64,000 bases of DNA from an uncultured Candidatus Saccharibacteria bacterium (GTDB lineage Bacteria; Patescibacteriota; Minisyncoccia; UBA6257; GWB1-50-10). The notes under the pieces are model-generated. The model saw only the letters and a program-made list of their open reading frames with translations. It made no database searches and had not been told where the DNA came from. Location of the stretch: contig CAZAZV010000002.1 in assembly GCA_964489845.1 (NCBI GenBank), positions 770-64,769 of the forward strand, read 5' to 3'. A program made the position numbers and the translations under genes. This document shows positions 749 through 57,286 of the stretch, one piece after another; the stretch's first letter is position 1, and each line of letters opens with the position of its first letter.

Positions 749-1513
749 TTAGTCGATAGCAACGAGCACCTCGGGACCGTGCGACGTAATCGCAACGGTC
801 GTTTCGAAATGCGCGCTCACGTCGCCGTGTTCCGTCGCGTAGCTTCCGTCCGTGCGCGGAACGGCTCGCTCCGATACGAATGCGAACATCGGCTCGAGCG
901 CGAGCACCATGCCTTCCTGCAGTTTCAATCCCGTTCCCCGCTCGCCGAAGTTGTACACGTCGGGCGCTTCGTGCAGCTCGAAGCCGACGCCGTGACCGAC
1001 AAGATTGTGTATAACCTTCACCTGGGAGCGGAGTGCCGTCTGCTCCACTTCATGTCCGATATCCCCAAGCCGGTGTTTTGTGTCGCACACCCGGAGCGCA
1101 TTGCCGAGCGCCTCGCGCGTCGCCCGCATGAGGCGCTTGTTGTCTTCCGACACGGTGTCGACGCCGACCGTCACCGCCGCATCGGTCACGTACCCGCGAT
1201 AGGTTACTCCCATATCGAGAGACAAGATATCTCCGTCGCGCAAAACGGTCCCGTTCGGCAAACCGTGCACGACGATGTTATTGAGAGACGCGCAGATGCG
1301 CGCCGGATACGCCGGCAGGCTCGGCTCGGGCCGGTATCCCAGAAACGCGGCATCGGCCCCCTCGGCGCGAAGCAGCTCCCCGGCAAGCGCATCGAGTTCC
1401 GAAAGTTTCGTGCCAGCAGCCGCGCGCACTTTGAGTGCCGAAAGAATGCGCGAAAGGATTACCCCAGAGGCCCGAAGCCCCTCGATGTCCTCGCTCGTTT
1501 TGATGCGAATCAT
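749..1513 (-). CDS. map: Methionine aminopeptidase type I
   Basis: 254 aa; metal-binding pita-bread fold motifs (VVHG, DGDILSLD, HNLVGHGVG, MVLALEPM); last gene after adk-secY. Confidence 0.9.
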   Translation of the reverse strand: MIRIKTSEDIEGLRASGVILSRILSALKVRAAAGTKLSELDALAGELLRAEGADAAFLGYRPEPSLPAYPARICASLNNIVVHGLPNGTVLRDGDILSLDMGVTYRGYVTDAAVTVGVDTVSEDNKRLMRATREALGNALRVCDTKHRLGDIGHEVEQTALRSQVKVIHNLVGHGVGFELHEAPDVYNFGERGTGLKLQEGMVLALEPMFAFVSERAVPRTDGSYATEHGDVSAHFETTVAITSHGPEVLVAID

Positions 1514-2202
1514 GCAGTGAGATGAAGCGCCGCTTTCACGCGTTCGTGCACTTCGTAGGGATATCCGGTGCCATCAACTTCCGTGACCGAAACGCCGAAC
1601 GTCCGTATTTTTTCCACGAGCGGAAGAATCCCTTCCGCGTACACCTTGAGGCGCGCCCGAATCGTCTCCGGATTGTCGTCTTCCCGTTTCTTCCCCTCCC
1701 CGCCGCAGAAGTTGCACCGCGCTCCCTCGGATGCGTTCATCATCGGCAAGCCGCACACCGAGCAAATAAAGCGCGTGGAATTGCGCCGCAACGATTCCTC
1801 GGATGGGACGCGAAGCAGCACCATATGGATGTGTTCTTTCCCGTAGTATTCCGCGAGCGCCGGGAGCAGTCCCTGGTGCTCCGCATCGCCGAACGCTTCG
1901 AACCCGGCGCGCGGCGAACCGCTCAAAATAATGTCGAGTCCCGCCTGCGCGATGCGGAATACTTTGTCGCGCTCGATCGCGAGCACCCACTTCGGGTCGA
2001 CGAGTTTGCCCGCCGCGTATTCCTCGCGCTTCTCCTTGATGTCAGGCGTGAGCGCGATGTCGGGAGAGAAAAGAAGGTGTTCCAGATACCGTCCGGTATC
2101 GAAGTGAATGAAGTGAAATGCCCGCGCCAGGAGCTCCGCTTGCGTTCCCTTCCCTGCCCCGGGAGGACCGTAGAGGATGATGGCTTGACTAGATTCCTTC
2201 AT
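1510..2202 (-). CDS. adk: Adenylate kinase, zinc-lid type
   Basis: ILYGPPGAGKGTQ P-loop; CSVCG...CNFCGG lid zinc ribbon. Confidence 0.9.
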   Translation of the reverse strand: MKESSQAIILYGPPGAGKGTQAELLARAFHFIHFDTGRYLEHLLFSPDIALTPDIKEKREEYAAGKLVDPKWVLAIERDKVFRIAQAGLDIILSGSPRAGFEAFGDAEHQGLLPALAEYYGKEHIHMVLLRVPSEESLRRNSTRFICSVCGLPMMNASEGARCNFCGGEGKKREDDNPETIRARLKVYAEGILPLVEKIRTFGVSVTEVDGTGYPYEVHERVKAALHLTA

Positions 2203-20903: not shown

Positions 20904-21686
20904 TTACTTCGCGCTTTTCGCTTTGCGCTTCGCGCTGCCGCTCTTTGCGGTTTTCTTTCCGACTTCCGGTTCTATCTCCTGTTTCGTCTCCGAGGGGAAC
21001 GCTTCCGCGACTTTCGCGAAGTGGTCGCGCATGATGTTGCTTGCCTGGTGCAGCGCCCGCGACGGGCTGATGGAGCCGTCGGTCGTGATGGTGAGCCGCA
21101 GCTTGTTGTAGTTGGTGCGCTCGCCGACGCGCATATTCTCGACTTCCGTCTCGACGTTCACGACCGGAGAAAACATGCAGTCCAAGAGAATCGTCCCGAC
21201 CGGCAGCCGTTCCGCTTGCCGCTCTTCGGCCGAGAGGTATCCGAGTCCTTTCTCGACGACGAGCTCCATCGAGAGCTCTGTCTTGCCATCGGTGATTTCG
21301 GTGATGTACAAATCCTTGTTCACGACTTCGGCGAGCGGGTTCGATTCGATGTCTCCCGCCGTCACTTTCCCCTTCCCCTTCGCCTTGAGATACAGCGTCT
21401 GCGGTTCGTCGGCGTGGAAGATGAAACGCACCTGCTTGAGGTTCAGGATGATGTCCAGCACGCTGTCCATCACGCCCTCCATCGTGGAGAACTCGTGTTT
21501 CACGCCTTTGATTTTCGCCTGCGAAATCGCCGCGCCGGGAAGCGACGAGAGGAGCGTCCGCCGCAGGGCGCTGCCGATGGTAATACCGTAGCCCGGATAG
21601 AGACCTTCGATGGAAAACTCGCCCACTGTGTCGGTTTCCTTTCCTTTTTTGACGTTCACCGTATCGCTCAAGTATGAGTAGTCCAT
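20904..21686 (-). CDS. rpoA: DNA-directed RNA polymerase alpha subunit, N-terminal domain only, with Lys-rich tail and no recognisable alpha-CTD
   Basis: 260 aa; dimerisation/assembly domain (GYGITIGSALRRTLLSSLPGAAI...) ends in KKTAKSGSAKRKAKSAK. Confidence 0.8.
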   Translation of the reverse strand: MDYSYLSDTVNVKKGKETDTVGEFSIEGLYPGYGITIGSALRRTLLSSLPGAAISQAKIKGVKHEFSTMEGVMDSVLDIILNLKQVRFIFHADEPQTLYLKAKGKGKVTAGDIESNPLAEVVNKDLYITEITDGKTELSMELVVEKGLGYLSAEERQAERLPVGTILLDCMFSPVVNVETEVENMRVGERTNYNKLRLTITTDGSISPSRALHQASNIMRDHFAKVAEAFPSETKQEIEPEVGKKTAKSGSAKRKAKSAK

Positions 21687-25356: not shown

Positions 25357-27075
25357 TTAGTATACCACACCGCGGATGCGGCGGACGCCGCGCGCGGCAG
25401 ACTCTTCCTTCGTGATTTTAAACGTCCCGATTTCCCCCGTACGCGTCACGTGCGGTCCTCCGCAGAACTCCTTGCTGTAGGCATCCGCAAGTGAGTTTCC
25501 TATGTAGTAGACGGAGACAACGTCGGGATACACGTCCCGCGTCGAGTGGAGCGCTCCTGTCTTTTCCGCCTCCGTCTTCGGCAACTCGATTTTTTGCACC
25601 GGTAAATCCTCGCGTATTTTCCCGTTCACCAATTCCTCCACGCGCGTTTTTTCTTCGTTCGTCAATTTCCGCTCGAAGCCGAAATCGAAGCGCGTCCGCT
25701 CCGGCGTGATGTCGGAACCCTCTTGCGGAATCTCCGCATGGAGCACGTCGCGGAGTGCCTGGTGGAGCAGGTGCGTCACGGTGTGCAAGCGAACGACTCG
25801 TTCCTCTTCCTCGCTCGTCCCCGCTTTCAATTCCCCGGTGTCAAGCGTGAGGCCGTGCCCGCCGAACTTCTTCCCCGCCCCCGCGCGGGAAATTTCCTGG
25901 TGCTTCTCGAATTCCTTGTCGAAATCCTCCCGATGCAGAGCACTCACTTTCGTGCCGCTGACGTCTTTCACGACCTCGTACGGAAGTCCGAAGGTTTGGT
26001 AGAGATAAAACGCGCGCGGCGCGTCGACGACAGCGAATTTTTCCAACTCTTTCAGCCCGCGCTCGAGCGCGGCCGAAAATTCCTCGCGCTCTTTCTCGAA
26101 AACATCGAGCACGAGTTTTTCGTCGAGTTCGCGATACGCCTCGCGGTATGACGCCACGACGGCGCGAAGCAACCGAGGCACATCGAGCCCTCTCCGCTCC
26201 CAAACAATGAGGCGGCGCAGGAGGCGGCGCAGAACGTATCCCGCTTCCTTATTCGACGGCAAGACACCGTCGGATATGAGGAACACAATCCCCCGTCCGT
26301 GGTCCGCGACAATGCGCTGCTCTTTCTCGGACAAGGAATCGGGGAGAAGCGCGATGAGCGGCTTGAAAAGGTCCGTTTCGAAAATCGTGGGGGTACTCTG
26401 CGAAACCATCGTGAGCCGCTCGAGTCCCATGCCGGTATCGACGCCGGATATCGCGAGCGGAGCGAGCCGCTTCTCCACATCGGCATAGAATTCGTTGAAC
26501 ACAATGTTCCACACCTCGAGTCCCCGCACGTACACCTCCGTCGTCGGCCCGCACGGCCCCTCGTTTCCCGTCGGTCCCCAGAATACGTCCGTGCCGTCGC
26601 CGCGGATATCCCGAACCCCGAGTGATTCCCAGATGACACGTGATTCGTCGTCACGAGGAACGTCCTTGCGCCAGTCGCCGTCCGGTACCTTGTCGGGGTC
26701 GAAAATTGTTACATAGTCAATGCTCAGTTTCATCACGTTTGTGATGAAATCGTATGCATATTCAATCGCTTCCTTTTTGAAATATCCGCCGAAGGAAAAG
26801 TTTCCGAGCATCTCAAAGAAGGTGAGGTGACTCTCGTCGCCCACCTCATCAATATCCGATGTGCGGAAACACTTCTGCACCGATGCGACGTTCCTGCTCC
26901 CGAAACGTTTTTTCGCACCGAGTTCTCCCGTGTAGTACCGCTTAAACTGCTGCATCCCCGCAGTAGTGAGGAGCACCGACGCATCGTTGGGTATGAGTGA
27001 CGAAGACGGAACTACGACGTGTCCCTTCTGCTCAAAATACTCGAGAAACTTTTTCCTAATCTCCGCGGACGTCAT
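25357..27075 (-). CDS. alaS: Alanyl-tRNA synthetase, short form (572 aa; catalytic and editing domains, no C-Ala domain)
   Basis: TTAGMQQFK...QKCFRTSDIDEVGDESHLTFFEMLGNFSFGGYFK; editing motifs THLLHQALRDVL and FCGGPH. True start at the internal MTSAEIRK, which shares 1 nt with the rpoD stop (TGATG). Confidence 0.85.
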   Translation of the reverse strand: MTSAEIRKKFLEYFEQKGHVVVPSSSLIPNDASVLLTTAGMQQFKRYYTGELGAKKRFGSRNVASVQKCFRTSDIDEVGDESHLTFFEMLGNFSFGGYFKKEAIEYAYDFITNVMKLSIDYVTIFDPDKVPDGDWRKDVPRDDESRVIWESLGVRDIRGDGTDVFWGPTGNEGPCGPTTEVYVRGLEVWNIVFNEFYADVEKRLAPLAISGVDTGMGLERLTMVSQSTPTIFETDLFKPLIALLPDSLSEKEQRIVADHGRGIVFLISDGVLPSNKEAGYVLRRLLRRLIVWERRGLDVPRLLRAVVASYREAYRELDEKLVLDVFEKEREEFSAALERGLKELEKFAVVDAPRAFYLYQTFGLPYEVVKDVSGTKVSALHREDFDKEFEKHQEISRAGAGKKFGGHGLTLDTGELKAGTSEEEERVVRLHTVTHLLHQALRDVLHAEIPQEGSDITPERTRFDFGFERKLTNEEKTRVEELVNGKIREDLPVQKIELPKTEAEKTGALHSTRDVYPDVVSVYYIGNSLADAYSKEFCGGPHVTRTGEIGTFKITKEESAARGVRRIRGVVY

Positions 27076-28250
27076 CAATATCCCTCCAGGTGCTTCACCT
27101 TCCGGTGCTTCCGAATCTGCTCGATCGCCTTCGCCTCGATCTGCCGTATCCGCTCGCGCGTCACGCCGAAGTCCTTGCCGACTTCTTCCAGGGTGTGCGT
27201 GATGTTGTCCTCGAGCCCGAAGCGCATGGAAAGAATTTTCTGTTCCCGCTCGGTGAGGTCGACGAGAATGTCCCTGATTTGCTCCTTCAAAAGGGCGTAG
27301 TTCGCCTGCTCGTCCGGCGGAATGCTCTGCTCGTCGGGCAAGAGGTCCGAGAGCGTGGAGTCCTCCTCGCTGTCGCCGATGGGCATTTCGAGCGACAACA
27401 CTTCCTGCGAAATTTTCTGGATATACCGCACCTTTTCCACCGGCACGCCCATCTCGACGGCGATTTCCTCGGGGAGCGGCTCGCGCCCCAACTCCTGCAT
27501 CAGCTGCCGCCGCTCCTGCGTATACTTTGTAATCGTCTCCACCATGTGCACGGGGATGCGGATCGTGCGCGAGTAGTCGGCCAAAGCGCGCGTCACCGCC
27601 TGGCGTATCCACCACGTCGCATAGGTCGAGAACTTGAATCCTTTGGTGTAGTCGAATTTCTCGACCGCCCGCGTGAGTCCGATGTTCCCTTCCTGGATAA
27701 GGTCGAGGATGCTCATGTACGGGCTCCGGTTCACGTACCGCTTCGCGATGGACACGACGAGACGCAGGTTCGCCTGCACGAGTTTCTTGCGGGCTTCTTC
27801 GTCGCCCTGCTCGATGCGCTTCGCGAGTTCCTTTTCCTCGCGCGACGTGAGGAGCGGCGTTTCCCCGATCTCTTTCAGGTACATCTGCACGACATCCGGC
27901 ATCCCCTCGCTCGCACGGGTCGCGGCTTTCAATTCCTGCTTGCTTACTTCTTCGCTGTCCGCGGTAACCAGCGGCAGCGCCTCGAGCACTTTCACGCCTT
28001 CCGCTTCCAGTTTCTCGTACACGCTCTCGATAAGGGGGATGTTGCGCTCAATGTACGGGAAGTAGCGGAGTATTTCCACGTCCGTCACGAAACCGCGCTG
28101 CTTCCCCCGTGCGACGAGTGTCGCAAGATTCTCGTCGCGGTCTTCCCCTTCCGGAACGGCAATGTGCTGCTGCGTCTCGTGGCGCTTGAGCCCCGATTCG
28201 CTCTGTGCGGAAAATCCGCACACGCTGCAGATAAATGTTTTCTTAGCCAT
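27075..28250 (-). CDS. rpoD: RNA polymerase sigma-70 factor with N-terminal C2H2-like zinc finger
   Basis: Regions 2 and 4 ([42 protein letters not shown]; [23 protein letters not shown]); N-terminus [24 protein letters not shown]. Confidence 0.88.
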
Positions 28251-31098
28251 TGGTGCGCAACGTATCCAGTTCCCCCGAGAGTTCCGAAAATTGCTTCAGC
28301 AGCCGCTCGCGCTCGGCTTCTCCGATGACGGAAGCGATACGCGATTTGATTTCTTTCTGCTTCACTTTGAGCATCTCGATCCGCAGCTGCCGCATAAGTT
28401 CTTTGAGTTCGTCTGCCAGTTCCTCATGCGGAACATTGTTGAACAAATAACTCGCCTCGAGTTCCAGGAGTCCCCCCTCGGCCGTTCTGCGCAGGAGTAT
28501 GTCCTGGTAATGCTCCGGCAAAAGGTCCTGCTCCGATTCCACTTCAGCATAAAACGAGTCATCGGAGAACGCAACGGTGAGGAGCCGCCGCGCGATGCGG
28601 TCTATGCGTTTCACTTCGGCTTCCTGCGGCGTCTCCGCTTCGACCGGCGCCGGTCCGCCGGCTTTTACGGTCGCGAACGCCTCGCGGAGCATCTGCTCCG
28701 AAATGCCCGCTGCGCGGGAGAGTTCCTTGAGCCACATATCCTGCTCCACGGCGCTCTCAAGGCGCGAGATGAGCCGCAGCATCGTCCCCACCATCCGCTT
28801 CCGCGCCGCGGGGTCGAGCGTGCCGCCGAAACGGACGGCGAAGAGCCGCTTGAACGCGGGTTCGGCTTGCGCGACACGTTTTGCGAACCCCTCCGCGTCT
28901 CTTTCCACAAACTCCGCCGGGTCTTTAAAGGTGCCGAGATCAACCGCCTTGACATAAAAATCGAACGTCCCGAGGAGCTCGAGGGAACGCTCGAGCGCCT
29001 CGATGCCCGCCTCGTCGCTGTCGAAACTCACGACCGCCGTGTCGGTGAGCCGCCGCAACGCGGTGAGATGCGCCGGCGTCAAACTCGTCCCGCACACCGC
29101 GACGGCATTCGTCACGCCCGCCTGGTGCGCCATGAGGGCATCCATATATCCCTCCATGACGAAAACGCTTTTCTGCTGCGCGATGTCCCGCTTCGCCTGC
29201 GAGAACCCGTAGAGGAGTTTCGATTTTTGGAAAATCGGCGTCTCGGGAGAATTCACGTACTTGGGGTTATTGTCGTCGTCCGCGAGCACGCGCCCCGCGA
29301 AACCGACGACCCTGCCGATATTGTTCCAGAGCGGGAACATCACGCGGTTCGCGAAAAAATCTTTGTAGAGTCCTCCTCGCTTCACGGCAAAGCCCGCTTG
29401 GACGAGTGTCTCGATGGAATGTCCTTTGTGGAGGAGGTACACGGTGAGCGCGTCACCACCGGGCGCATAGCCGAGCTCAAAGCGTTTCGCTGTCTCGCCG
29501 GTGAGGCCGCGTCCCTTCAGGTACGCGATCGTTTCCGCGTTCTCTTTTAGCTTGCTCCTGAAGAAGTCCCGCGCGAGCTCGTTCACTTCGTACAATTCGG
29601 CGAAGCGGTGCTCCATGCCGCCCCGGCCGCGCGAAAGTTCGATACCCGCCCGCTCGGCGAGAAGCTGGAGCGCCTCGGGAAACTCAATGCCCTCGTAGAG
29701 CATCACGAACTTGATGACGTCTCCCCCCTGTCCGCAATTCGCCACCGCAAAATGATTTGCTACGTATGAATGGTCTTCGTCGACAGTTAAGTTATAGACA
29801 GGACCGGTATACGGTTCTTTCCACACTTCCTTTACGGGAAGGAGCCAATAACGCCTTCCTTCGACCTCCTCGTATATGAAGCTATGCTGGGACTTCGCCT
29901 CCTCCGACCAGAGGATTCTGTAGACCTCGCGATGATTCACGCCTCGCGCATCGTGCCTTGTCCCCCGAACTCCGAAAGAAGGAAAGAGGTTGTTTCTTAA
30001 GAGTATGTCAATAACCTGCTCAGCAAGAATTCTCGAAATACTCGTGATGCTTTTATGCGTTTTTGTGGAACGACTGAATATACCGGTATGCCCATCGCCT
30101 CTGAAAATGGCATCGACCAGCACCTTCTGCTTTTCTGGAGGTAAAACTTGGAACACAAAGGGTATGTGTTTATACTCTGCTCCCTTGCCGCAAAGATTCT
30201 CAAAAATATTGGCGAGCTGTGCATGGCACGCGGTAATTTCGAGACCTGTTTTCTTTGTCTTGTTCGGATTTCTTTCATAAATCTTCGCTTCAAGTCCGAA
30301 AACGTTTTTCACGAGACGGACGATATCGTCGGCAAATTCCCGCTCATGATTCCCCAAACTGAATCGGATATACGCCCGATGACTGCTTCCCTCAGCTATC
30401 CAATAACCGAGAAGTCTCAGAAAGTCGTCATCAAGGGCAATGTTGAGTGAAATATCCCGCGAATGAGGACCAAACGTATATCCCTTGGTCAAATAGTCAT
30501 TGAGGTCGATGCGGGTCAGTTCGGCAACCGAGTTCTCAATCGGATAAAACACAAAATCGGCCGGTGCAATGCTGCCCGCATTGATTTCGATGATACTTCC
30601 GTGTTGCCGCGCCGCCTCGGAGAGCGTACGGGCCGTGCCCCGCGATACCGCATCGCGGCACAGACGATAAAACTGTTTGGTTTTCTTGCGGTAAGAAGTT
30701 GCGGGTCGCAGAACCTTCAGCTTATGGTCAGCGGTCATGGATACTGTCTCATTAAGTTTTCTCGTTCTCACATGAACTAAATCGCCCACATAATTTCTCA
30801 CATGAGTCGCGAGTACTCTCCGAACCTTCCCCGAACCGGAGTAGACGTAATGATTCTCGTCAATGTCTTCTATGTTATGGAGACCAAAGGGAGTTTTTAC
30901 CTTCTGACCCGGCGGGAAACACCCGAAGCAGTGCCACATCCGTCGCTCGGGAGACACCATGAAGGACGGAGTTTTCTCCTGATGGAAGGGGCAGAGCGCT
31001 TTGTAGTTCTTGCCCGCCGGCCTCAGGTCGATGTATCCCTTTAACACATCGAGAATGTCGGTGCGCTCTTTCACGCGCTCCACGTCAGTTGTTGCCAT
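28243..31098 (-). CDS. dnaG: DNA primase DnaG interrupted by a 395-aa LAGLIDADG intein in the zinc-binding domain
   Basis: Exteins: [24 protein letters not shown] | [12 protein letters not shown], then TOPRIM ([17 protein letters not shown]...SFDSDEAG). Confidence 0.85.
29737..30921 (-). mobile_element. Intein (Cys1 ... Asn395, with a Cys at the following extein position) with a LAGLIDADG homing-endonuclease domain, inserted in the DnaG zinc ribbon
   Basis: Starts CFPPGQKV (block A), TADH (block B), [11 protein letters not shown] and [12 protein letters not shown] (LAGLIDADG blocks), ends ...HFAVAN followed by an extein Cys. Removal restores the HCFGCGQGGD primase consensus. Confidence 0.75.
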
Positions 31099-50170: not shown

Positions 50171-50911
50171 CTACGGTGTCCCCGTCGCCTCAAACGGTTC
50201 GGGGAACACCATGAACTGCGGCGGGATATACAAATCGTCCCGGTCGATCGGCCGGATACCGAACGCGCGAAGCGTTCCGCTCGAATCTTCCACGAAGCCC
50301 CCGACGACCACCGTATCCCCGACCGAAATGTTCGGCAAAGGGGACGGCAGCATCCGCTTGTCCGTTATGAAAAGCATGCGCCCGAACATATCCCGGACGA
50401 TGATATGGTTGTCGGACAAATCCATGACCTGTCCGACGATCGCCGGCCCTCTGCTCCGATGGAATTCCATGCCGGGAACGCCGGCGAATCCCCGCACCGG
50501 CGCATTGAACTGCCGCACATCGAGCAGGACACCGACGACAATGAGCACGCACACGACGAGCCCCGCGGAGTACAAAAGCGGCCGCTTATACACGACACCG
50601 TAGTGCCGCAGGAGCGCTTCGAGCGCGATAATGAGCACTGCAACGACCGCGACGGTAAGCCACGGGAAACTTCCAATGAACATGCGCCACCCCCACGCGC
50701 CGAAGCCGGGGAGGAACCAGATGCCGTTGCGGTGCAGCGACAGGCGTATCCAGCCGATAACAAAAATGACCGCGGCGGCGACGAGCATGACAATGAGCGC
50801 GTAGAGCGCCGCGCGGAGCGCGAAGTACCACCTGCCGCGCGGCTTCAGATGCCCTGAACGGATACGCTCCATGACGCGACTGAATGCGTTTTTGTTATTG
50901 GTGTTCGGCAT
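50171..50911 (-). CDS. Hypothetical multi-pass membrane protein co-transcribed with the ECF sigma factor (possible anti-sigma / regulator)
   Basis: Overlaps the sigma gene stop by 17 nt; 4 TM; C-terminal soluble domain. Confidence 0.45.
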   Translation of the reverse strand: MPNTNNKNAFSRVMERIRSGHLKPRGRWYFALRAALYALIVMLVAAAVIFVIGWIRLSLHRNGIWFLPGFGAWGWRMFIGSFPWLTVAVVAVLIIALEALLRHYGVVYKRPLLYSAGLVVCVLIVVGVLLDVRQFNAPVRGFAGVPGMEFHRSRGPAIVGQVMDLSDNHIIVRDMFGRMLFITDKRMLPSPLPNISVGDTVVVGGFVEDSSGTLRAFGIRPIDRDDLYIPPQFMVFPEPFEATGTP

Positions 50912-51494
50912 GTGCTTCGTGGAGAGCGCGTTTCAGCAAATCCTTCGCGCGCTTCAACCTGATGGCGACTGTCCCTTTCGGTATTCGCATGATATCGGAG
51001 ATGGCATCGTATGAAAACTCTTCGAAATAGTACAGGACAAGCGGCTCGCGATATTTCGGCGGCAAGGCGTCAACGGACGCCTTCAAGAATGCTCTTGTTT
51101 CCTTGCCGCTCAAGTCCGCTTCAAGATTCTCGTCAGCGGCAAGGTGTGGGAACACCACATCAAGGTCGAAAAAAGTAAGCGGTTCCCGTTTCGTCCGCCG
51201 TATGAAATTGACCGCCTCATTGTGCGCGATGCGGTACAGCCATGGGGAAAATCTGCGTGCCGTGTTGAAACTCCGGATATTCAGATACGCTTTCACGAAT
51301 GCCTCCTGCACGATGTCGTCGCTGTCCAAATCTCCCGCGAAGCGCTTCGCATATCTCGTGAGCCGCTCCTGATACCGTCTCGTGAGCTCTTCGAACGCCT
51401 CCACGTCCCCGCGCTGCACGCGCGCGGCGAACTCCTCGTCGGAAACCCCATCATTATTCATACGCGCCTCGTCCGCACATTCTTTCACAGCCAT
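50895..51494 (-). CDS. ECF (sigma-24 family) RNA polymerase sigma factor
   Basis: Region 2 DIVQEAFVKAYLNIRSF...SPWLYRIAHNEAVNFIRR; region 4 EFSYDAISDIMRIPKGTVAIRLKRAK; start trimmed to MAVKECA. Confidence 0.8.
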   Translation of the reverse strand: MAVKECADEARMNNDGVSDEEFAARVQRGDVEAFEELTRRYQERLTRYAKRFAGDLDSDDIVQEAFVKAYLNIRSFNTARRFSPWLYRIAHNEAVNFIRRTKREPLTFFDLDVVFPHLAADENLEADLSGKETRAFLKASVDALPPKYREPLVLYYFEEFSYDAISDIMRIPKGTVAIRLKRAKDLLKRALHEAHAEHQ

Positions 51495-51503
51495 TCCTTT
51501 ACT

Positions 51504-56025: not shown

Positions 56026-56240
56026 CCGCTATCCCCTGAAAAAGGACCCGCGCAGGGCGAGCTGGCAGAACTTGCCCGAACGAAGTGAGGTTACAAGTTC
56101 GCCATCCCGAGGAGCTCTGCCAGCAGGCGGAGCGAGGAGGGGCTACCTTCAGCGAGAGAGCGAGCCCGAGCGTGAACGCGTCCCGCTCGCGGGGCGGGAC
56201 GACGTGTTTCGCTTCAGGGGCGTAGCGGTCGGAGTAGGTC
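56026..56240. repeat. Family-2 structured repeat / candidate ncRNA (copy 2, about 215 nt)
   Basis: ccgctatcccctgaaaaaggacccgcg...gagcccgagcgtgaacgcgtcccgctcgcggggcgggacgacgtgtttcgcttcaggggcgtagcgg; homologous to 39541-39715 with a 40-nt insertion. Confidence 0.5.
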
Positions 56241-57286
56241 TACTTCAGCCGATATGCTCCCCCCGGCAGTCGCTCGAAATACTGCCGGTTCTGGAGGTTG
56301 AGCACGATGGTATTCTCCTTCGAAAACTTGCGCTTCTGAACGGCGTTTATCAGTTCCCGGGCGCTCATCGGCCCGTTTTCTCCCAAAATCCTCGCGATCA
56401 CTTCCCGTACCGTTCCTCCTTCGTACCCGTCTTCCTTCAACCCGTACGTTCCCCGGCCCACGAGCACGAACCGCTCGTCTTTGATGAGTTCGTTATGAAT
56501 GGTCTGAGGATGCACGCGCCGTTCGGCAAGTCCGACTTCCTGGATCATTTTCGCAATGTCTCTGAAGTGCAACGGCTTCCCGTGCTTCTTCAGTATCAGG
56601 TACGCGCGGTCGCGCGAGAATCGCGGCGTGATCTCGGGCCACTCCGCAAGTCCCACGTCTCCGAACACGTTCACGGTGACGCGGCGGGCGAGCGGCAGGA
56701 GCCGCCCCAGTTCCATGGCGTCGAACCACTCGAGATGCTTACGCTTCACAAGAATTCCTTCCGGTCCCGCTTGCTCGAATCTCTTGATGAGCTGCTTCAC
56801 GTCCCGCAGCACCCCGCTCTTCTGCCGCTCGTCGAGGTACCAAAACGCTTCCACGTCCCGATCGCCGGGAAAATAAAACGGCGCGCCGTTCGAAACTTCG
56901 AGGACGAAGTGCAGTTTGTTCGCGCACTGCTGCACCGAGTCGACAAGTCCTTTGCGCTCGAGGTCGGCGAGAAATTGCTCGCCGTGCGCGTAGCCGCCGC
57001 GTTCCTTCAGAATCACGTACGCGTCAGCGAGAAAATCCTGCAAAAGTCCCGCGAGAACATCTGCGAGCGCTTCCCGCGTTTTTTTCTCTATTTGCCGCAC
57101 CCGCTCGCGCGTCAGTTCAAGGTCGTCTCCGATTTCCTGGAGCGTCCGCCGCGTACCGCTTCGGTCGAGACCGAATCGTCCTCGTATGACTTCGCGCTGC
57201 TTCGGGGAAAAATCCGCAAGCGCGTCCCGCAATATGCCATCCAAATACGTCATAGGAAATCTAACAATAACACACAAGTTATCCAC
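56240..57286 (-). CDS. Sigma-70 region-4 HTH domain protein with large unknown C-terminal domain
   Basis: FSPKQREVIRGRFGL...TLQEIGDDLELTRERVRQIEKKTREAL. Confidence 0.5.
   Translation of the reverse strand: MDNLCVIVRFPMTYLDGILRDALADFSPKQREVIRGRFGLDRSGTRRTLQEIGDDLELTRERVRQIEKKTREALADVLAGLLQDFLADAYVILKERGGYAHGEQFLADLERKGLVDSVQQCANKLHFVLEVSNGAPFYFPGDRDVEAFWYLDERQKSGVLRDVKQLIKRFEQAGPEGILVKRKHLEWFDAMELGRLLPLARRVTVNVFGDVGLAEWPEITPRFSRDRAYLILKKHGKPLHFRDIAKMIQEVGLAERRVHPQTIHNELIKDERFVLVGRGTYGLKEDGYEGGTVREVIARILGENGPMSARELINAVQKRKFSKENTIVLNLQNRQYFERLPGGAYRLK

What the first reader, a model, noticed from the sequence alone, without database searches (positions are those of the whole stretch)
28179..28250. 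The housekeeping sigma-70 carries an N-terminal C2H2-type zinc finger
RpoD begins [29 protein letters not shown], which fits C-x2-C-x12-H-x4-H (classical C2H2 spacing) ahead of the normal regions 2-4. C2H2 fingers are rare in bacteria. One in place of sigma region 1.1 is unusual and could confer additional DNA or protein contacts.
Basis: seen in the sequence. Interest (0 to 1): 0.5.

Follow-up and report, generated by a model that had tools for sequence, protein, structure and literature searches.

The report
Zinc finger on a bacterial sigma factor
The main transcription-initiation factor (sigma-70) of an uncultivated "candidate phyla radiation" bacterium carries a conserved, eukaryote-style C2H2 zinc finger in front of its normal N-terminal domain. 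In close relatives the same finger also sits on the RNA polymerase alpha subunit, where the usual DNA-binding C-terminal domain is missing, so this lineage appears to have changed how its polymerase touches DNA.

Summary
rpoD (window 28250..27075, minus strand, 391 aa) starts [29 protein letters not shown], which is C8-x2-C11-x12-H24-x4-H29.

- **Conservation:** all 17 closest orthologue clusters (72-100% identity) keep the four ligands and nine other residues, with synonymous codon changes. On a tree built without the finger they form an exclusive clade.
- **Fold:** AlphaFold predicts a beta-beta-alpha fold (pLDDT 81-91). Its 50 best PDB matches are all classical C2H2 fingers.
the finger does not replace region 1.1. 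Region 1.1 is present (aa 38-105, Pfam E 5e-9), and the finger sits a fixed 18-19 residues ahead of its RG motif.

New context found here:
- Alpha subunits lack the alpha-CTD in the window and in all 120 nearest RpoA clusters. They end in Lys-rich tails.
- In at least four alpha clusters the same finger type sits at the alpha C-terminus. Three of those genomes could be checked for sigma, and all three also carry the sigma finger.
- The finger signature also occurs on RecT-type recombinases and HTH proteins.

Best reading (inferred, not shown): the finger is an auxiliary DNA-contact module on RNA polymerase. I found no description of it in the searchable literature. Novelty: a new variant of known kinds. 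Interest 0.62.

The parts
27075..28250 (-). rpoD, a primary (group 1) sigma-70 of 391 aa. The start codon overlaps the dnaG stop by 8 nt.
   Evidence: ORF list. Pfam regions 1.1, 1.2, 2, 3 and 4 are all above threshold. Best NCBIfam hit is RpoD PRK09210, 446.6 bits. The identical protein P0001 is in the NCBI collection.
28164..28235 (-). C2H2 zinc finger, residues F6-H29. Predicted ligands are C8, C11, H24 and H29. Predicted strands are at 6-7 and 14-15, with a helix at 18-27/29.
   Evidence: Sequence. There are 13 invariant positions across 11 distinct orthologous fingers. Ligand codons change synonymously. AlphaFold gives pLDDT 81/91/87 for residues 1-30. Foldseek's top 50 PDB matches are all classical C2H2 fingers, rmsd 0.5-1.7 A for the well-superposed single fingers.
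28236..28250 (-). Short N-terminal stub MAKKT. This is the remnant of the Lys/Arg-rich tail, which is 23-63 aa long in most finger-bearing orthologues.
   Evidence: N-terminal comparison.
28140..28163 (-). Acidic linker IAVPEGED (residues 30-37) between the finger and region 1.1.
   Evidence: pLDDT is below 50 for residues 29-36. Net charge is -3. The spacing from the last His to the RG motif of region 1.1 is fixed at 18-19 aa in all 17 orthologues.
27936..28139 (-). Sigma region 1.1 (residues 38-105). It is present, not replaced.
   Evidence: Pfam PF03979, E 5e-9, 36.4 bits against a cutoff of 22.5. Predicted helices at 38-52, 57-63 and 71-83. Net charge is -4.
27108..27896 (-). Sigma regions 1.2 (aa 119-152), 2 (157-228), 3 (238-315) and 4 (329-381).
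   Evidence: Pfam PF00140, PF04542, PF04539 and PF04545, E 5e-16 to 1e-21.
28243..31098 (-). dnaG (primase, 951 aa) immediately upstream and translationally overlapped with rpoD. It contains a 395-aa intein.
   Evidence: ORF list. Pfam Zn_ribbon_DnaG, DNAG_N, Toprim and LAGLIDADG_3. The dnaG-rpoD order is conserved in L001-L004 and L013.
20904..21686 (-). rpoA (260 aa): alpha N-terminal domain plus a basic tail (GKKTAKSGSAKRKAKSAK), with no alpha-CTD and no finger. This is context for the sigma finger. In relatives, this C-terminus carries the same finger type.
   Evidence: Pfam finds only PF01193 and PF01000, with no PF03118. C-termini of 120 relatives. Alpha fingers in L006, L007 and L013.

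Best explanation
**What it is**
A genuine, zinc-stabilised, classical-type (beta-beta-alpha, 12-residue spacer) C2H2 mini-domain. It was added once to the N-terminus of the primary sigma factor in one sub-clade of Paceibacteria (Patescibacteria/CPR) and has been kept under purifying selection. It sits a fixed 18-19 residues ahead of the RG motif of an intact region 1.1. In most members a Lys/Arg-rich tail of variable length precedes it.

**Proposed function (inferred, not shown)**
The finger is an auxiliary nucleic-acid (most likely DNA) contact arm of the RNA polymerase holoenzyme. Three points lead to this:
- Alpha has lost its C-terminal DNA- and activator-binding domain in the window and in all 120 nearest RpoA clusters. 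Both alpha (C-terminus) and sigma (N-terminus) instead carry flexible basic tails.
- In some genomes the same finger is grafted onto both tails.
- By analogy with single-finger-plus-basic-region DNA binders such as GAGA factor (my own knowledge), the tail and finger would add DNA affinity.

Because region 1.1 occupies the downstream DNA channel in the holoenzyme and is expelled when the open complex forms, a finger held close to it would most plausibly contact duplex DNA at the channel entrance or downstream face during promoter loading.

**Shown:** sequence, conservation, predicted fold, domain order, loss of the alpha-CTD, the finger on alpha, and the finger on RecT and HTH proteins.
**Inferred:** zinc binding, DNA binding, and where the finger sits on the polymerase.
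For: - **Conservation:** 17 of 17 nearest orthologue clusters keep the ligands plus 9 other invariant residues. Many codon changes are synonymous, including at the ligands.
- **Single acquisition:** the 17 form an exclusive clade on a tree built from residues 38-391, bootstrap 25/40.
- **Fold:** predicted beta-beta-alpha with pLDDT up to 91. All top-50 PDB fold matches are classical C2H2 fingers, many of them DNA-bound, such as BCL11A, CTCF, Zif268, SALL4 and Kaiso.
- **Fixed position:** finger-to-r1.1 spacing is 18-19 aa, while the preceding tail varies from 5 to 63 aa and is about 40% Lys/Arg in relatives.
- **No alpha-CTD:** the window alpha and all 120 nearest alpha clusters lack PF03118 and end in Lys-rich tails.
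- **Finger on alpha:** four alpha clusters end in the same finger signature (CGFxAKSERGL[KR]xH..QH; a fifth hit, P0331, is a fragment). The three such genomes whose sigma could be read (L006/L009, L007/L008, L013) also have the sigma finger.
- **Finger on DNA-handling proteins:** the sigma-finger profile finds single-finger hits at E 1e-9 to 1e-6. One is a Pfam-confirmed RecT protein (P0310), others look like RecT/SSAP proteins but are not Pfam-confirmed, and others are two-finger proteins with a weak, sub-threshold HTH_17 match.
- **Helix positions:** an invariant Arg sits at helix position +6 and Lys/Arg at +5 (helix register).
Against:
- A single C2H2 finger alone usually binds DNA weakly. 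In the window protein the basic tail is reduced to two lysines, the finger's net charge is only +2, and the linker is acidic.
- Canonical base-contact positions -1, +2 and +3 are small residues (Ser, Ser/variable, Gly). The +6 Arg is not kept in the alpha and RecT versions.
- The finger is tethered next to region 1.1, at the downstream channel. That is not where the alpha-CTD works (upstream), so simple compensation for alpha-CTD loss is not geometrically obvious.
- Most relatives in the window's wider clade manage with basic tails alone.
- Pfam C2H2 models match only below threshold.
- The exclusive clade has only moderate bootstrap support.
Confidence: 0.5

Rival explanations
1. Protein-protein docking module. 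The finger is a small zinc-stabilised adaptor that binds another protein, such as an RNAP core surface, a transcription regulator or a partner from the host or symbiont, rather than nucleic acid. It would give the polymerase a regulator docking site to replace the lost alpha-CTD.
For: - The alpha-CTD is also the main activator docking site, and it is missing here.
- The same module appears on two RNAP subunits.
- The canonical base-reading positions are small residues.
- Net charge is low.
- C2H2 fingers are known to mediate protein contacts (my own knowledge).
Against: - The finger is embedded in Lys/Arg-rich tails typical of nucleic-acid binders.
- It recurs on RecT-type recombinases and HTH proteins, which handle DNA.
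- No candidate partner was identified.
Confidence: 0.2
2. Intramolecular regulator or sensor. The finger modulates region 1.1 behaviour (autoinhibition of free sigma, or occupancy and ejection from the DNA channel), or it makes sigma activity depend on zinc or redox state through its two cysteines.
For: - The distance to region 1.1 is fixed and short (18-19 aa) while everything upstream varies.
- N-terminal sigma extensions strongly affect initiation kinetics in other bacteria. Deleting the Mycobacterium tuberculosis sigma-A N-terminal extension lowers Vmax about 100-fold (PMC11888270).
Against: - The same finger at the far end of a long flexible alpha tail, and on unrelated proteins, argues for an autonomous module rather than an r1.1-specific partner.
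- Sister lineages have a normal region 1.1 without it.
- C2H2 sites are usually structural rather than redox-sensing (my own knowledge).
Confidence: 0.15
3. RNA-binding arm. The finger and basic tail bind RNA, such as a nascent transcript, a small RNA or ribosomal RNA, and couple initiation to another process.
For: - Some C2H2 fingers bind RNA, for example TFIIIA (my own knowledge).
- Lys-rich tails bind any polyanion.
- One fold match was to a ribosomal zinc protein (rank 48).
Against: - There is no specific indication of RNA binding.
- The associated proteins (sigma, alpha, RecT, HTH) act on DNA.
Confidence: 0.08
4. Annotation artefact or chance motif. The true start lies downstream and the Cys/His pattern is a fortuitous, untranslated or non-functional stretch.
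For: - The bare pattern occurs by chance at about 0.14 per shuffled window.
- Pfam C2H2 matches are below threshold.
Against: - The next Met is residue 117, which would delete the conserved region 1.1.
- The finger is conserved at the protein level across 72-100% identical orthologues from independent assemblies, with synonymous changes.
- The predicted fold is confident.
- The ATG overlapping the dnaG stop is conserved.
Confidence: 0.02

Closest known systems
Classical (eukaryote-type) C2H2 zinc fingers, e.g. Zif268, CTCF, BCL11A and ZFY, and in particular single-finger-plus-basic-region binders such as GAGA factor
   Same: - C-x2-C-x12-H-x4-H spacing.
- An aromatic residue two positions before the first Cys, and Leu at helix position +4.
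- A predicted beta-beta-alpha fold that superposes at 0.5-1.7 A on solved fingers.
- In most orthologues a single finger is flanked by a basic region, as in GAGA factor (my own knowledge).
   Different: - It is bacterial, and fused to an RNA polymerase sigma subunit rather than to a gene-specific transcription factor.
- It is a single copy.
- The core aromatic is at +2 after the second Cys (Phe13), with an invariant Ala at the canonical +4 position.
- Small residues occupy base-contact positions -1 and +3.
- It scores below the Pfam thresholds (16 bits against 25).
- In the window protein the basic flank is almost absent.
Ros/MucR prokaryotic zinc-finger family (Agrobacterium Ros, Sinorhizobium/Brucella MucR)
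   Same: A bacterial Cys2His2 zinc site on a hairpin plus helix, used for DNA binding (PMC9779718). There is a weak sequence match to Ros87, E 0.027.
   Different: - Ros has a 9-residue spacer and a 58-aa beta-beta-beta-alpha-alpha globular domain with a second helix.
- This finger has the 12-residue spacer and is followed directly by a low-confidence linker.
- Ros is a stand-alone regulator or silencer of alpha-proteobacteria, not an RNAP subunit domain.
- The second finger type seen in sister sigmas (C-x2-C-x9-H-x3-H) is closer to Ros in spacing, but it was not studied further.
AFV1p06, the classical-type zinc finger of an archaeal virus
   Same: A classical-type finger outside eukaryotes. 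It is a single finger with disordered extensions and has been shown to bind zinc and DNA (PMC3541406).
   Different: AFV1p06 lacks the fourth His (a Glu replaces it), is a free small viral protein, and is archaeal. No specific sequence relationship was found here.
Alpha-subunit C-terminal domain (alpha-CTD) of bacterial RNA polymerase
   Same: A small DNA-binding module on a flexible tether attached to RNA polymerase (PMC8321222). In relatives the finger occupies exactly the alpha C-terminal position.
   Different: The fold is unrelated, since the alpha-CTD is helical (my own knowledge). The sigma copy is tethered at region 1.1, near the downstream channel, not upstream of the promoter. Neither UP-element-like nor activator contacts have been shown.
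N-terminal extensions of primary sigma factors in other phyla, e.g. the 205-residue disordered extension of Mycobacterium tuberculosis sigma-A
   Same: A lineage-specific addition at the N-terminus of the housekeeping sigma, positioned near the downstream DNA channel and able to change initiation kinetics (PMC11888270).
   Different: The mycobacterial extension is long and disordered, has no metal site, and is not homologous. Here a folded 24-residue zinc module precedes a recognisable region 1.1.

Membership tests
Classical C2H2 zinc finger (Pfam zf-C2H2 clan) | Ligand spacing C-x2-4-C-x12-H-x3-5-H | tested here: met
   C8-x2-C11-x12-H24-x4-H29. The spacing is identical in 17 of 17 orthologue clusters.
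Classical C2H2 zinc finger (Pfam zf-C2H2 clan) | Beta-hairpin plus alpha-helix (beta-beta-alpha) fold, with the Cys ligands on the hairpin and the His ligands on the helix | tested here: met
   Prediction only. Strands at 6-7 and 14-15, helix at 18-29, pLDDT 81/91/87. The same elements appear in the full-length model. The top 50 Foldseek PDB matches are all C2H2 fingers.
Classical C2H2 zinc finger (Pfam zf-C2H2 clan) | Conserved hydrophobic core: an aromatic before the first Cys, a hydrophobic residue at +4 after the second Cys, and Leu three residues before the first His (PROSITE-style consensus, from my own knowledge) | tested here: inconclusive
   F/Y/H at position 6 and an invariant L21 are present. 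Position +4 is an invariant Ala15, and the aromatic (an invariant Phe13) is shifted to +2.
Classical C2H2 zinc finger (Pfam zf-C2H2 clan) | Score above the curated Pfam gathering threshold | tested here: not met
   PF00096 scores 16.1 bits against 25.2, PF13894 scores 16.9 against 27, and the best hit, zf_C2H2_ZHX, scores 19.6 against 27.
Classical C2H2 zinc finger (Pfam zf-C2H2 clan) | Binds one Zn(II) tetrahedrally | not testable with these tools
   Needs metal analysis of purified protein.
Ros/MucR prokaryotic zinc finger | 9-residue spacer between the second Cys and the first His (C-x2-C-x9-H-x3-4-H) | tested here: not met
   The spacer is 12 residues. The Ros definition is taken from PMC9779718.
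Ros/MucR prokaryotic zinc finger | A roughly 58-aa beta-beta-beta-alpha-alpha globular domain with a second helix and a large hydrophobic core | tested here: not met
   The helix ends at about residue 29 and is followed by a linker with pLDDT below 50 (residues 29-36) and then region 1.1.
Primary (group 1) sigma-70, RpoD | Regions 1.1, 1.2, 2, 3 and 4 all present | tested here: met
   All five Pfam models score above threshold.
Primary (group 1) sigma-70, RpoD | Passes the NCBIfam RpoD equivalog cut-off | tested here: not met
   The best hit, PRK09210 RpoD, scores 446.6 bits against a cutoff of 572, and RpoD_Cterm scores 340 against 354. This is expected for a divergent CPR lineage, and RpoD models are still the top hits.
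Primary (group 1) sigma-70, RpoD | Conserved dnaG-rpoD operon context | tested here: met
   dnaG lies immediately upstream, with an overlapping stop and start, in the window. dnaG is also upstream in L001-L004, L013 and L014.
Primary (group 1) sigma-70, RpoD | The only or essential housekeeping sigma of the genome | not testable with these tools
   Only 64 kb is available. The other sigma-like ORFs in the window are an ECF-type sigma and a region-4/HARE-HTH protein.
Single-finger-plus-basic-region DNA binders (GAGA-factor-like mode; functional analogy only) | One finger directly flanked by a basic region that supplies additional DNA contacts | tested here: inconclusive
   Met in 14 of 17 orthologue clusters, whose tails are 23-63 aa long and rich in Lys/Arg. 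In the window protein and its two closest relatives only 'AKK'/'ARKK' remains.

The most novel reading that the evidence does not exclude
In this Paceibacteria clade the RNA polymerase has replaced the lost alpha-CTD system with classical C2H2 zinc fingers built into its own subunits, at the sigma N-terminus and the alpha C-terminus. These fingers would read a specific promoter-proximal DNA element. A eukaryote-style zinc finger would then be an intrinsic promoter-recognition module of a bacterial RNA polymerase, drawn from a mobile pool of prokaryotic and phage fingers (RecT and HTH fusions).
Probability: 0.15. Interest if true: 0.85.

Novelty: new variant of a known kind. Interest (0 to 1): 0.62.

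Why it matters
- **An unreported sigma architecture.** Primary sigma factors are among the most conserved and best-studied bacterial proteins. I found no report of a folded metal-binding DNA-type module ahead of region 1.1 (literature). Region 1.1 is a key kinetic gate of initiation.
- **A possible answer to how these polymerases touch DNA.** Three observations fit together: the alpha-CTD is absent in the window and in all 120 nearest RpoA clusters, basic tails are present on both alpha and sigma, and the same finger occurs on the alpha C-terminus. Together they suggest that CPR/Paceibacteria polymerases make their peripheral DNA or regulator contacts differently from model bacteria. These organisms cannot be grown alone, their promoters are essentially unstudied, and few transcription factors are known for them (my own knowledge).
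- **Origin of C2H2 fingers.** The result adds a distinct family of classical-spacing fingers in bacteria, and possibly in their phages (RecT fusions), to the debate on where C2H2 fingers came from.
- **Directly testable.** The peptide is only about 30-110 residues long.

Tried and rejected
- **Word-index search with the N-terminus.** A search with the first 90 residues returned nothing, not even the protein itself.
- **Exact-protein look-up.** P0001 is not on record in the contig index, so the window's source record name was not recovered.
- **Finger profile against PDB sequences.** The best hits were rubredoxin and ribosomal zinc-knuckle matches to 'KKYxCxxCGF', covering 10-12 residues. This was rejected as evidence of a relationship because only the knuckle aligns. 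Full-length finger matches (MBP-1, Ros, ubi-d4, ZFAT) were weak, at E 0.002-0.3.
- **IMG/VR viral contig scan.** Finger-derived patterns gave 122 pattern matches, none confirmed. The possible phage link therefore rests only on the RecT-family fusions found in the representative search.
- **Representative search.** The top of the list is dominated by multi-finger, probably eukaryotic proteins whose scores add up over many fingers. Only single-finger hits were interpreted.
- **Finger replacing region 1.1.** Rejected.
- **Mis-called start codon.** Rejected.
- **Ros/MucR membership.** Rejected on spacer length and domain size.
- **Cited source for alpha-CTD loss.** The paper cited elsewhere for alpha-CTD loss in Parcubacteria (Nelson and Stegen 2015) does not contain the words 'RNA polymerase', 'sigma' or 'rpoA' in its main text. 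That attribution could not be verified.
- **Identical heptapeptide in adenylate kinase.** 'FICSVCG' also occurs in the adenylate kinase lid. I judged this a coincidental zinc knuckle.
Full report
**1. The observation**

The minus-strand ORF at window 28250..27075 encodes a 391-aa protein beginning [29 protein letters not shown]. The motif is C8-x2-C11-x12-H24-x4-H29. The full finger (F6-H29) is 28235..28164.

The ATG overlaps the stop codon of the upstream primase gene dnaG by 8 nt (ATGGCTAA). The 90%-identical orthologue has the same overlap.

As a bare pattern the motif is only mildly unusual. The six-frame translation of the window has one match, against 0.14 on average in shuffled sequence. 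Whether it is real therefore has to be decided by conservation and structure.

**2. The protein**

Pfam finds all parts of a group-1 sigma above threshold:
- region 1.1 at aa 38-105 (E 5e-9, 36.4 bits against a cutoff of 22.5)
- region 1.2 at aa 119-152
- region 2 at aa 157-228
- region 3 at aa 238-315
- region 4 at aa 329-381

NCBIfam's best models are the RpoD equivalogs, although the protein scores below their strict cut-offs, as expected for a divergent lineage. The gene order dnaG-rpoD-alaS is conserved in relatives. The only other sigma-like ORFs in the window are an ECF-type sigma and a protein with region 4 fused to a HARE-HTH domain.

So this is the housekeeping-type sigma. However, the finger is not 'in place of region 1.1'. 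It is an add-on in front of a complete region 1.1. The homologues identify the organism as a member of the Patescibacteria (CPR), class Paceibacteria, near Jorgensenbacteria. The window has 50-60% G+C.

**3. Conservation**

Of the 120 closest sigma clusters in a 5.8-billion-protein collection, the 17 nearest (72-100% identity, from NCBI, JGI, ENA and Logan assemblies) all carry the same finger. They share C-x2-C-x12-H-x4-H spacing and 13 invariant positions (C8, C11, G12, F13, A15, S17, G20, L21, R23, H24, T26, Q28, H29). They represent 11 distinct finger sequences.

At the DNA level, five loci differ at 10-21 of the 24 finger codons. Many of the changes are synonymous, including TGC/TGT and CAC/CAT at the ligands. 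This means the finger is translated and under purifying selection.

On neighbour-joining trees built only from residues 38-391, the 17 finger-bearing sigmas form an exclusive clade (bootstrap 25/40). This is consistent with one acquisition followed by retention.

**4. Structure**

- With a 50-sequence alignment, AlphaFold2 predicts strands at 6-7 and 14-15 and a helix at 18-27. A low-confidence linker (29-36) follows, and then the helices of region 1.1.
- The finger alone (39 aa, 11-sequence alignment) gives pLDDT 81/91/87 for residues 1-30, with the same beta-beta-alpha elements.
- Foldseek against the PDB returns only classical C2H2 fingers among the top 50, including ZFY, ZNF484, BCL11A, ZFAT, CTCF, the Zif268 chimera, SALL4 and Kaiso. 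For the well-superposed single fingers the rmsd is 0.5-1.7 A over 22-31 residues, and probability reaches 0.9-0.99 for most of the top-ranked hits. E-values stay above 0.1, as expected for so small a domain.
- Sequence models are less decisive. Pfam C2H2 families match at E about 0.001-0.05, below their thresholds. The PDB sequence search mostly picks up the Cys knuckle of rubredoxins.
- The finger differs from the textbook consensus. It has an invariant Ala at the usual hydrophobic position (+4 after the second Cys), and the aromatic is at +2 instead.
- It is not a Ros/MucR finger. Those have a 9-residue spacer and a 58-aa beta-beta-beta-alpha-alpha domain (PMC9779718).

**5. Anatomy around the finger**

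The distance from the last His to the conserved RG motif of region 1.1 is 18-19 residues in all 17 clusters. The segment before the finger varies from 5 residues (the window and its two nearest relatives) to 63 residues, and it is Lys/Arg-rich.

Most other Paceibacteria sigmas have only such a basic tail. The median tail is about 45 aa and about 43% Lys/Arg.

A second, different finger, RCPxCxKLFYxLxxHMxVH (C-x2-C-x9-H-x3-H), occurs in four sister clusters. It also occurs together with the first type in P0009.

In the window protein the finger has net charge +2, the linker -3, and region 1.1 -4.

**6. The wider context: the alpha subunit**

Scanning one genome per GTDB species with finger-derived patterns gave eight loci:
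- Five are rpoD.
- Two (L006, L007) are rpoA. These encode an alpha N-terminal domain, a charged linker, and then FICDVCGFEAKSERGLKSHKTRQHS as the last residues.
- One (L012) is a small protein in a phage-like region.

Pfam confirms that these alpha proteins have only the N-terminal domains and no alpha-CTD. The window's own rpoA (21686..20904, 260 aa) likewise has no alpha-CTD. It ends in a basic tail without a finger.

All 120 nearest alpha clusters are 237-295 aa long, lack PF03118 and end in Lys-rich tails. Four of them end in the finger. In the three alpha-finger genomes where sigma could be read (L006/L009, L007/L008, and L013, whose sigma is 82% identical to the window's), sigma carries the finger too.

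Loss of the alpha-CTD in Parcubacteria is mentioned in one paper (PMC8321222), although I could not verify its cited source. I found nothing on fingers attached to alpha or sigma.

**7. The finger elsewhere**

An exhaustive HMMER search of 1.84 billion representatives with the sigma-finger profile gave 405 hits at E <= 1e-3. The top of the list is made of multi-finger, probably eukaryotic proteins. The single-finger hits with the same signature (CxxCGFxAxSERGLKKHxTQxH, 42-53 bits) include:
- one Pfam-confirmed RecT-family protein (P0310; RecT, E 1e-28)
- proteins that look like RecT or other single-strand-annealing proteins by eye, with no Pfam confirmation
- two-finger proteins with only a weak, sub-threshold Pfam HTH_17 match
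- proteins of about 180 aa with no known domain
- an alpha fragment

A pattern scan of IMG/VR found none. The module is thus a distinct, dispersed family, mostly prokaryotic and possibly also phage-borne, that tends to be attached to DNA-handling proteins.

**8. Interpretation**

Shown:
- a conserved finger with a confidently predicted classical fold
- its fixed position ahead of an intact region 1.1
- absence of the alpha-CTD in the window and in all 120 nearest RpoA clusters
- basic tails on both alpha and sigma
- the same finger on alpha in relatives, and on DNA-binding proteins elsewhere

Inferred:
- it binds zinc
- it works as an additional nucleic-acid contact of the holoenzyme, alone or with the basic tail, in the manner of single-finger-plus-basic-region proteins

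In well-studied holoenzymes, region 1.1 lies in the downstream DNA channel and leaves it on open-complex formation (established knowledge; see also PMC11888270). A finger 18 residues away would most likely meet DNA at the channel entrance or downstream face.

Caveats:
- A single finger binds DNA weakly.
- The window protein has almost no basic flank.
- The canonical base-reading positions are small residues.
- The sigma finger is not positioned where the alpha-CTD acts.

The alternatives remain open. These are a protein-docking site, a modulator or sensor acting on region 1.1, and RNA binding. An annotation artefact is effectively excluded.

**9. Verdict**

It is wrong on one point, because region 1.1 is not replaced.

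The architecture appears undescribed. It is a classical-spacing C2H2 finger on a primary sigma, paralleled by the same finger on CTD-less alpha subunits. It counts as a new variant of known kinds: a known fold on a known protein in a new combination and context. Interest is moderate to high for bacterial transcription and CPR biology.

Noticed in passing
window 20904-21686 (-): rpoA encodes a 260-aa alpha subunit with only the N-terminal domains (PF01193 and PF01000) and a short basic tail. The alpha-CTD (PF03118) is absent. The same holds for all 120 nearest alpha clusters, which are 237-295 aa long.
   Followed up: yes
L006:2191-3078, L007:2194-3078, L013:10001-10828 (also P0121-P0123, P0126, P0331): In related Paceibacteria the alpha subunit ends in the same C2H2 finger type (F[IV]C[DE]xCGFxAKSERGL[KR]xHKxxQH) after a charged linker. 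This is the position where the alpha-CTD would normally be. The three genomes whose sigma could be read (L006/L009, L007/L008, L013) also have the sigma finger.
   Followed up: yes
P0018, P0020, P0024, P0044, P0009 (sigma N-termini); L008 and L009: A second, different finger, RCPxCxKLFYxLxxHMxVH (C-x2-C-x9-H-x3-H, a Ros-like spacer), is embedded in the Lys-rich N-terminal tail of sister-clade sigmas. P0009, L008 and L009 carry both finger types in tandem. It has no Pfam match.
   Followed up: partly
window 29737-30921 (-), within dnaG 28243-31098: The primase gene carries a 395-aa intein (residues 60-454) with a LAGLIDADG homing-endonuclease domain. It is inserted inside the CHC2 zinc-binding motif (WHCFG|CFPPGQ...FAVAN|CGQGGDV). 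One relative (L002, 957 aa) also has it. Three others (577, 559 and 563 aa) do not.
   Followed up: partly
window 56240-57286 (-): A 348-aa protein combines a sigma-70 region 4 domain (aa 22-74, E 1.5e-13) with a HARE-HTH domain (aa 227-284, E 5e-14) and has no regions 2 or 3. This is an unusual sigma-fragment fusion.
   Followed up: partly
window about 50895-51500 (-): An ECF-type sigma factor (regions 2 and 4_2) lies at the C-terminal end of a long open frame. It shows that the genome has at least one alternative sigma.
   Followed up: partly
P0310, P0321, P0322, P0365, P0271, P0330, P0252, P0276, P0278, P0360, P0368, P0371 (representative search): The same finger signature (CxxCGFxAxSERGLKKHxTQxH) is fused to several protein types. 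One is a Pfam-confirmed RecT-family recombinase (P0310). Others look like RecT/SSAP proteins but have no Pfam confirmation. Others are two-finger proteins with a weak HTH_17 match, and others are about 180 aa with no known domain. This looks like an uncharacterised family of classical-spacing fingers in prokaryotes, possibly also phage-borne.
   Followed up: partly
L012:2695-3075: A 126-aa ORF ends in CFVCGFEAKSERGLKTHRKRKHNI. It lies in what looks by eye like a phage structural-gene region, which was not tested, on a high-GC contig binned as Gemmatimonadales UBA2988.
   Followed up: no
window 1510-2202 (-): The adenylate kinase lid contains the heptapeptide FICSVCG, identical to sigma residues 6-12, within a four-Cys zinc lid (CSVC...CNFC). 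I judged this a coincidental zinc knuckle.
   Followed up: yes
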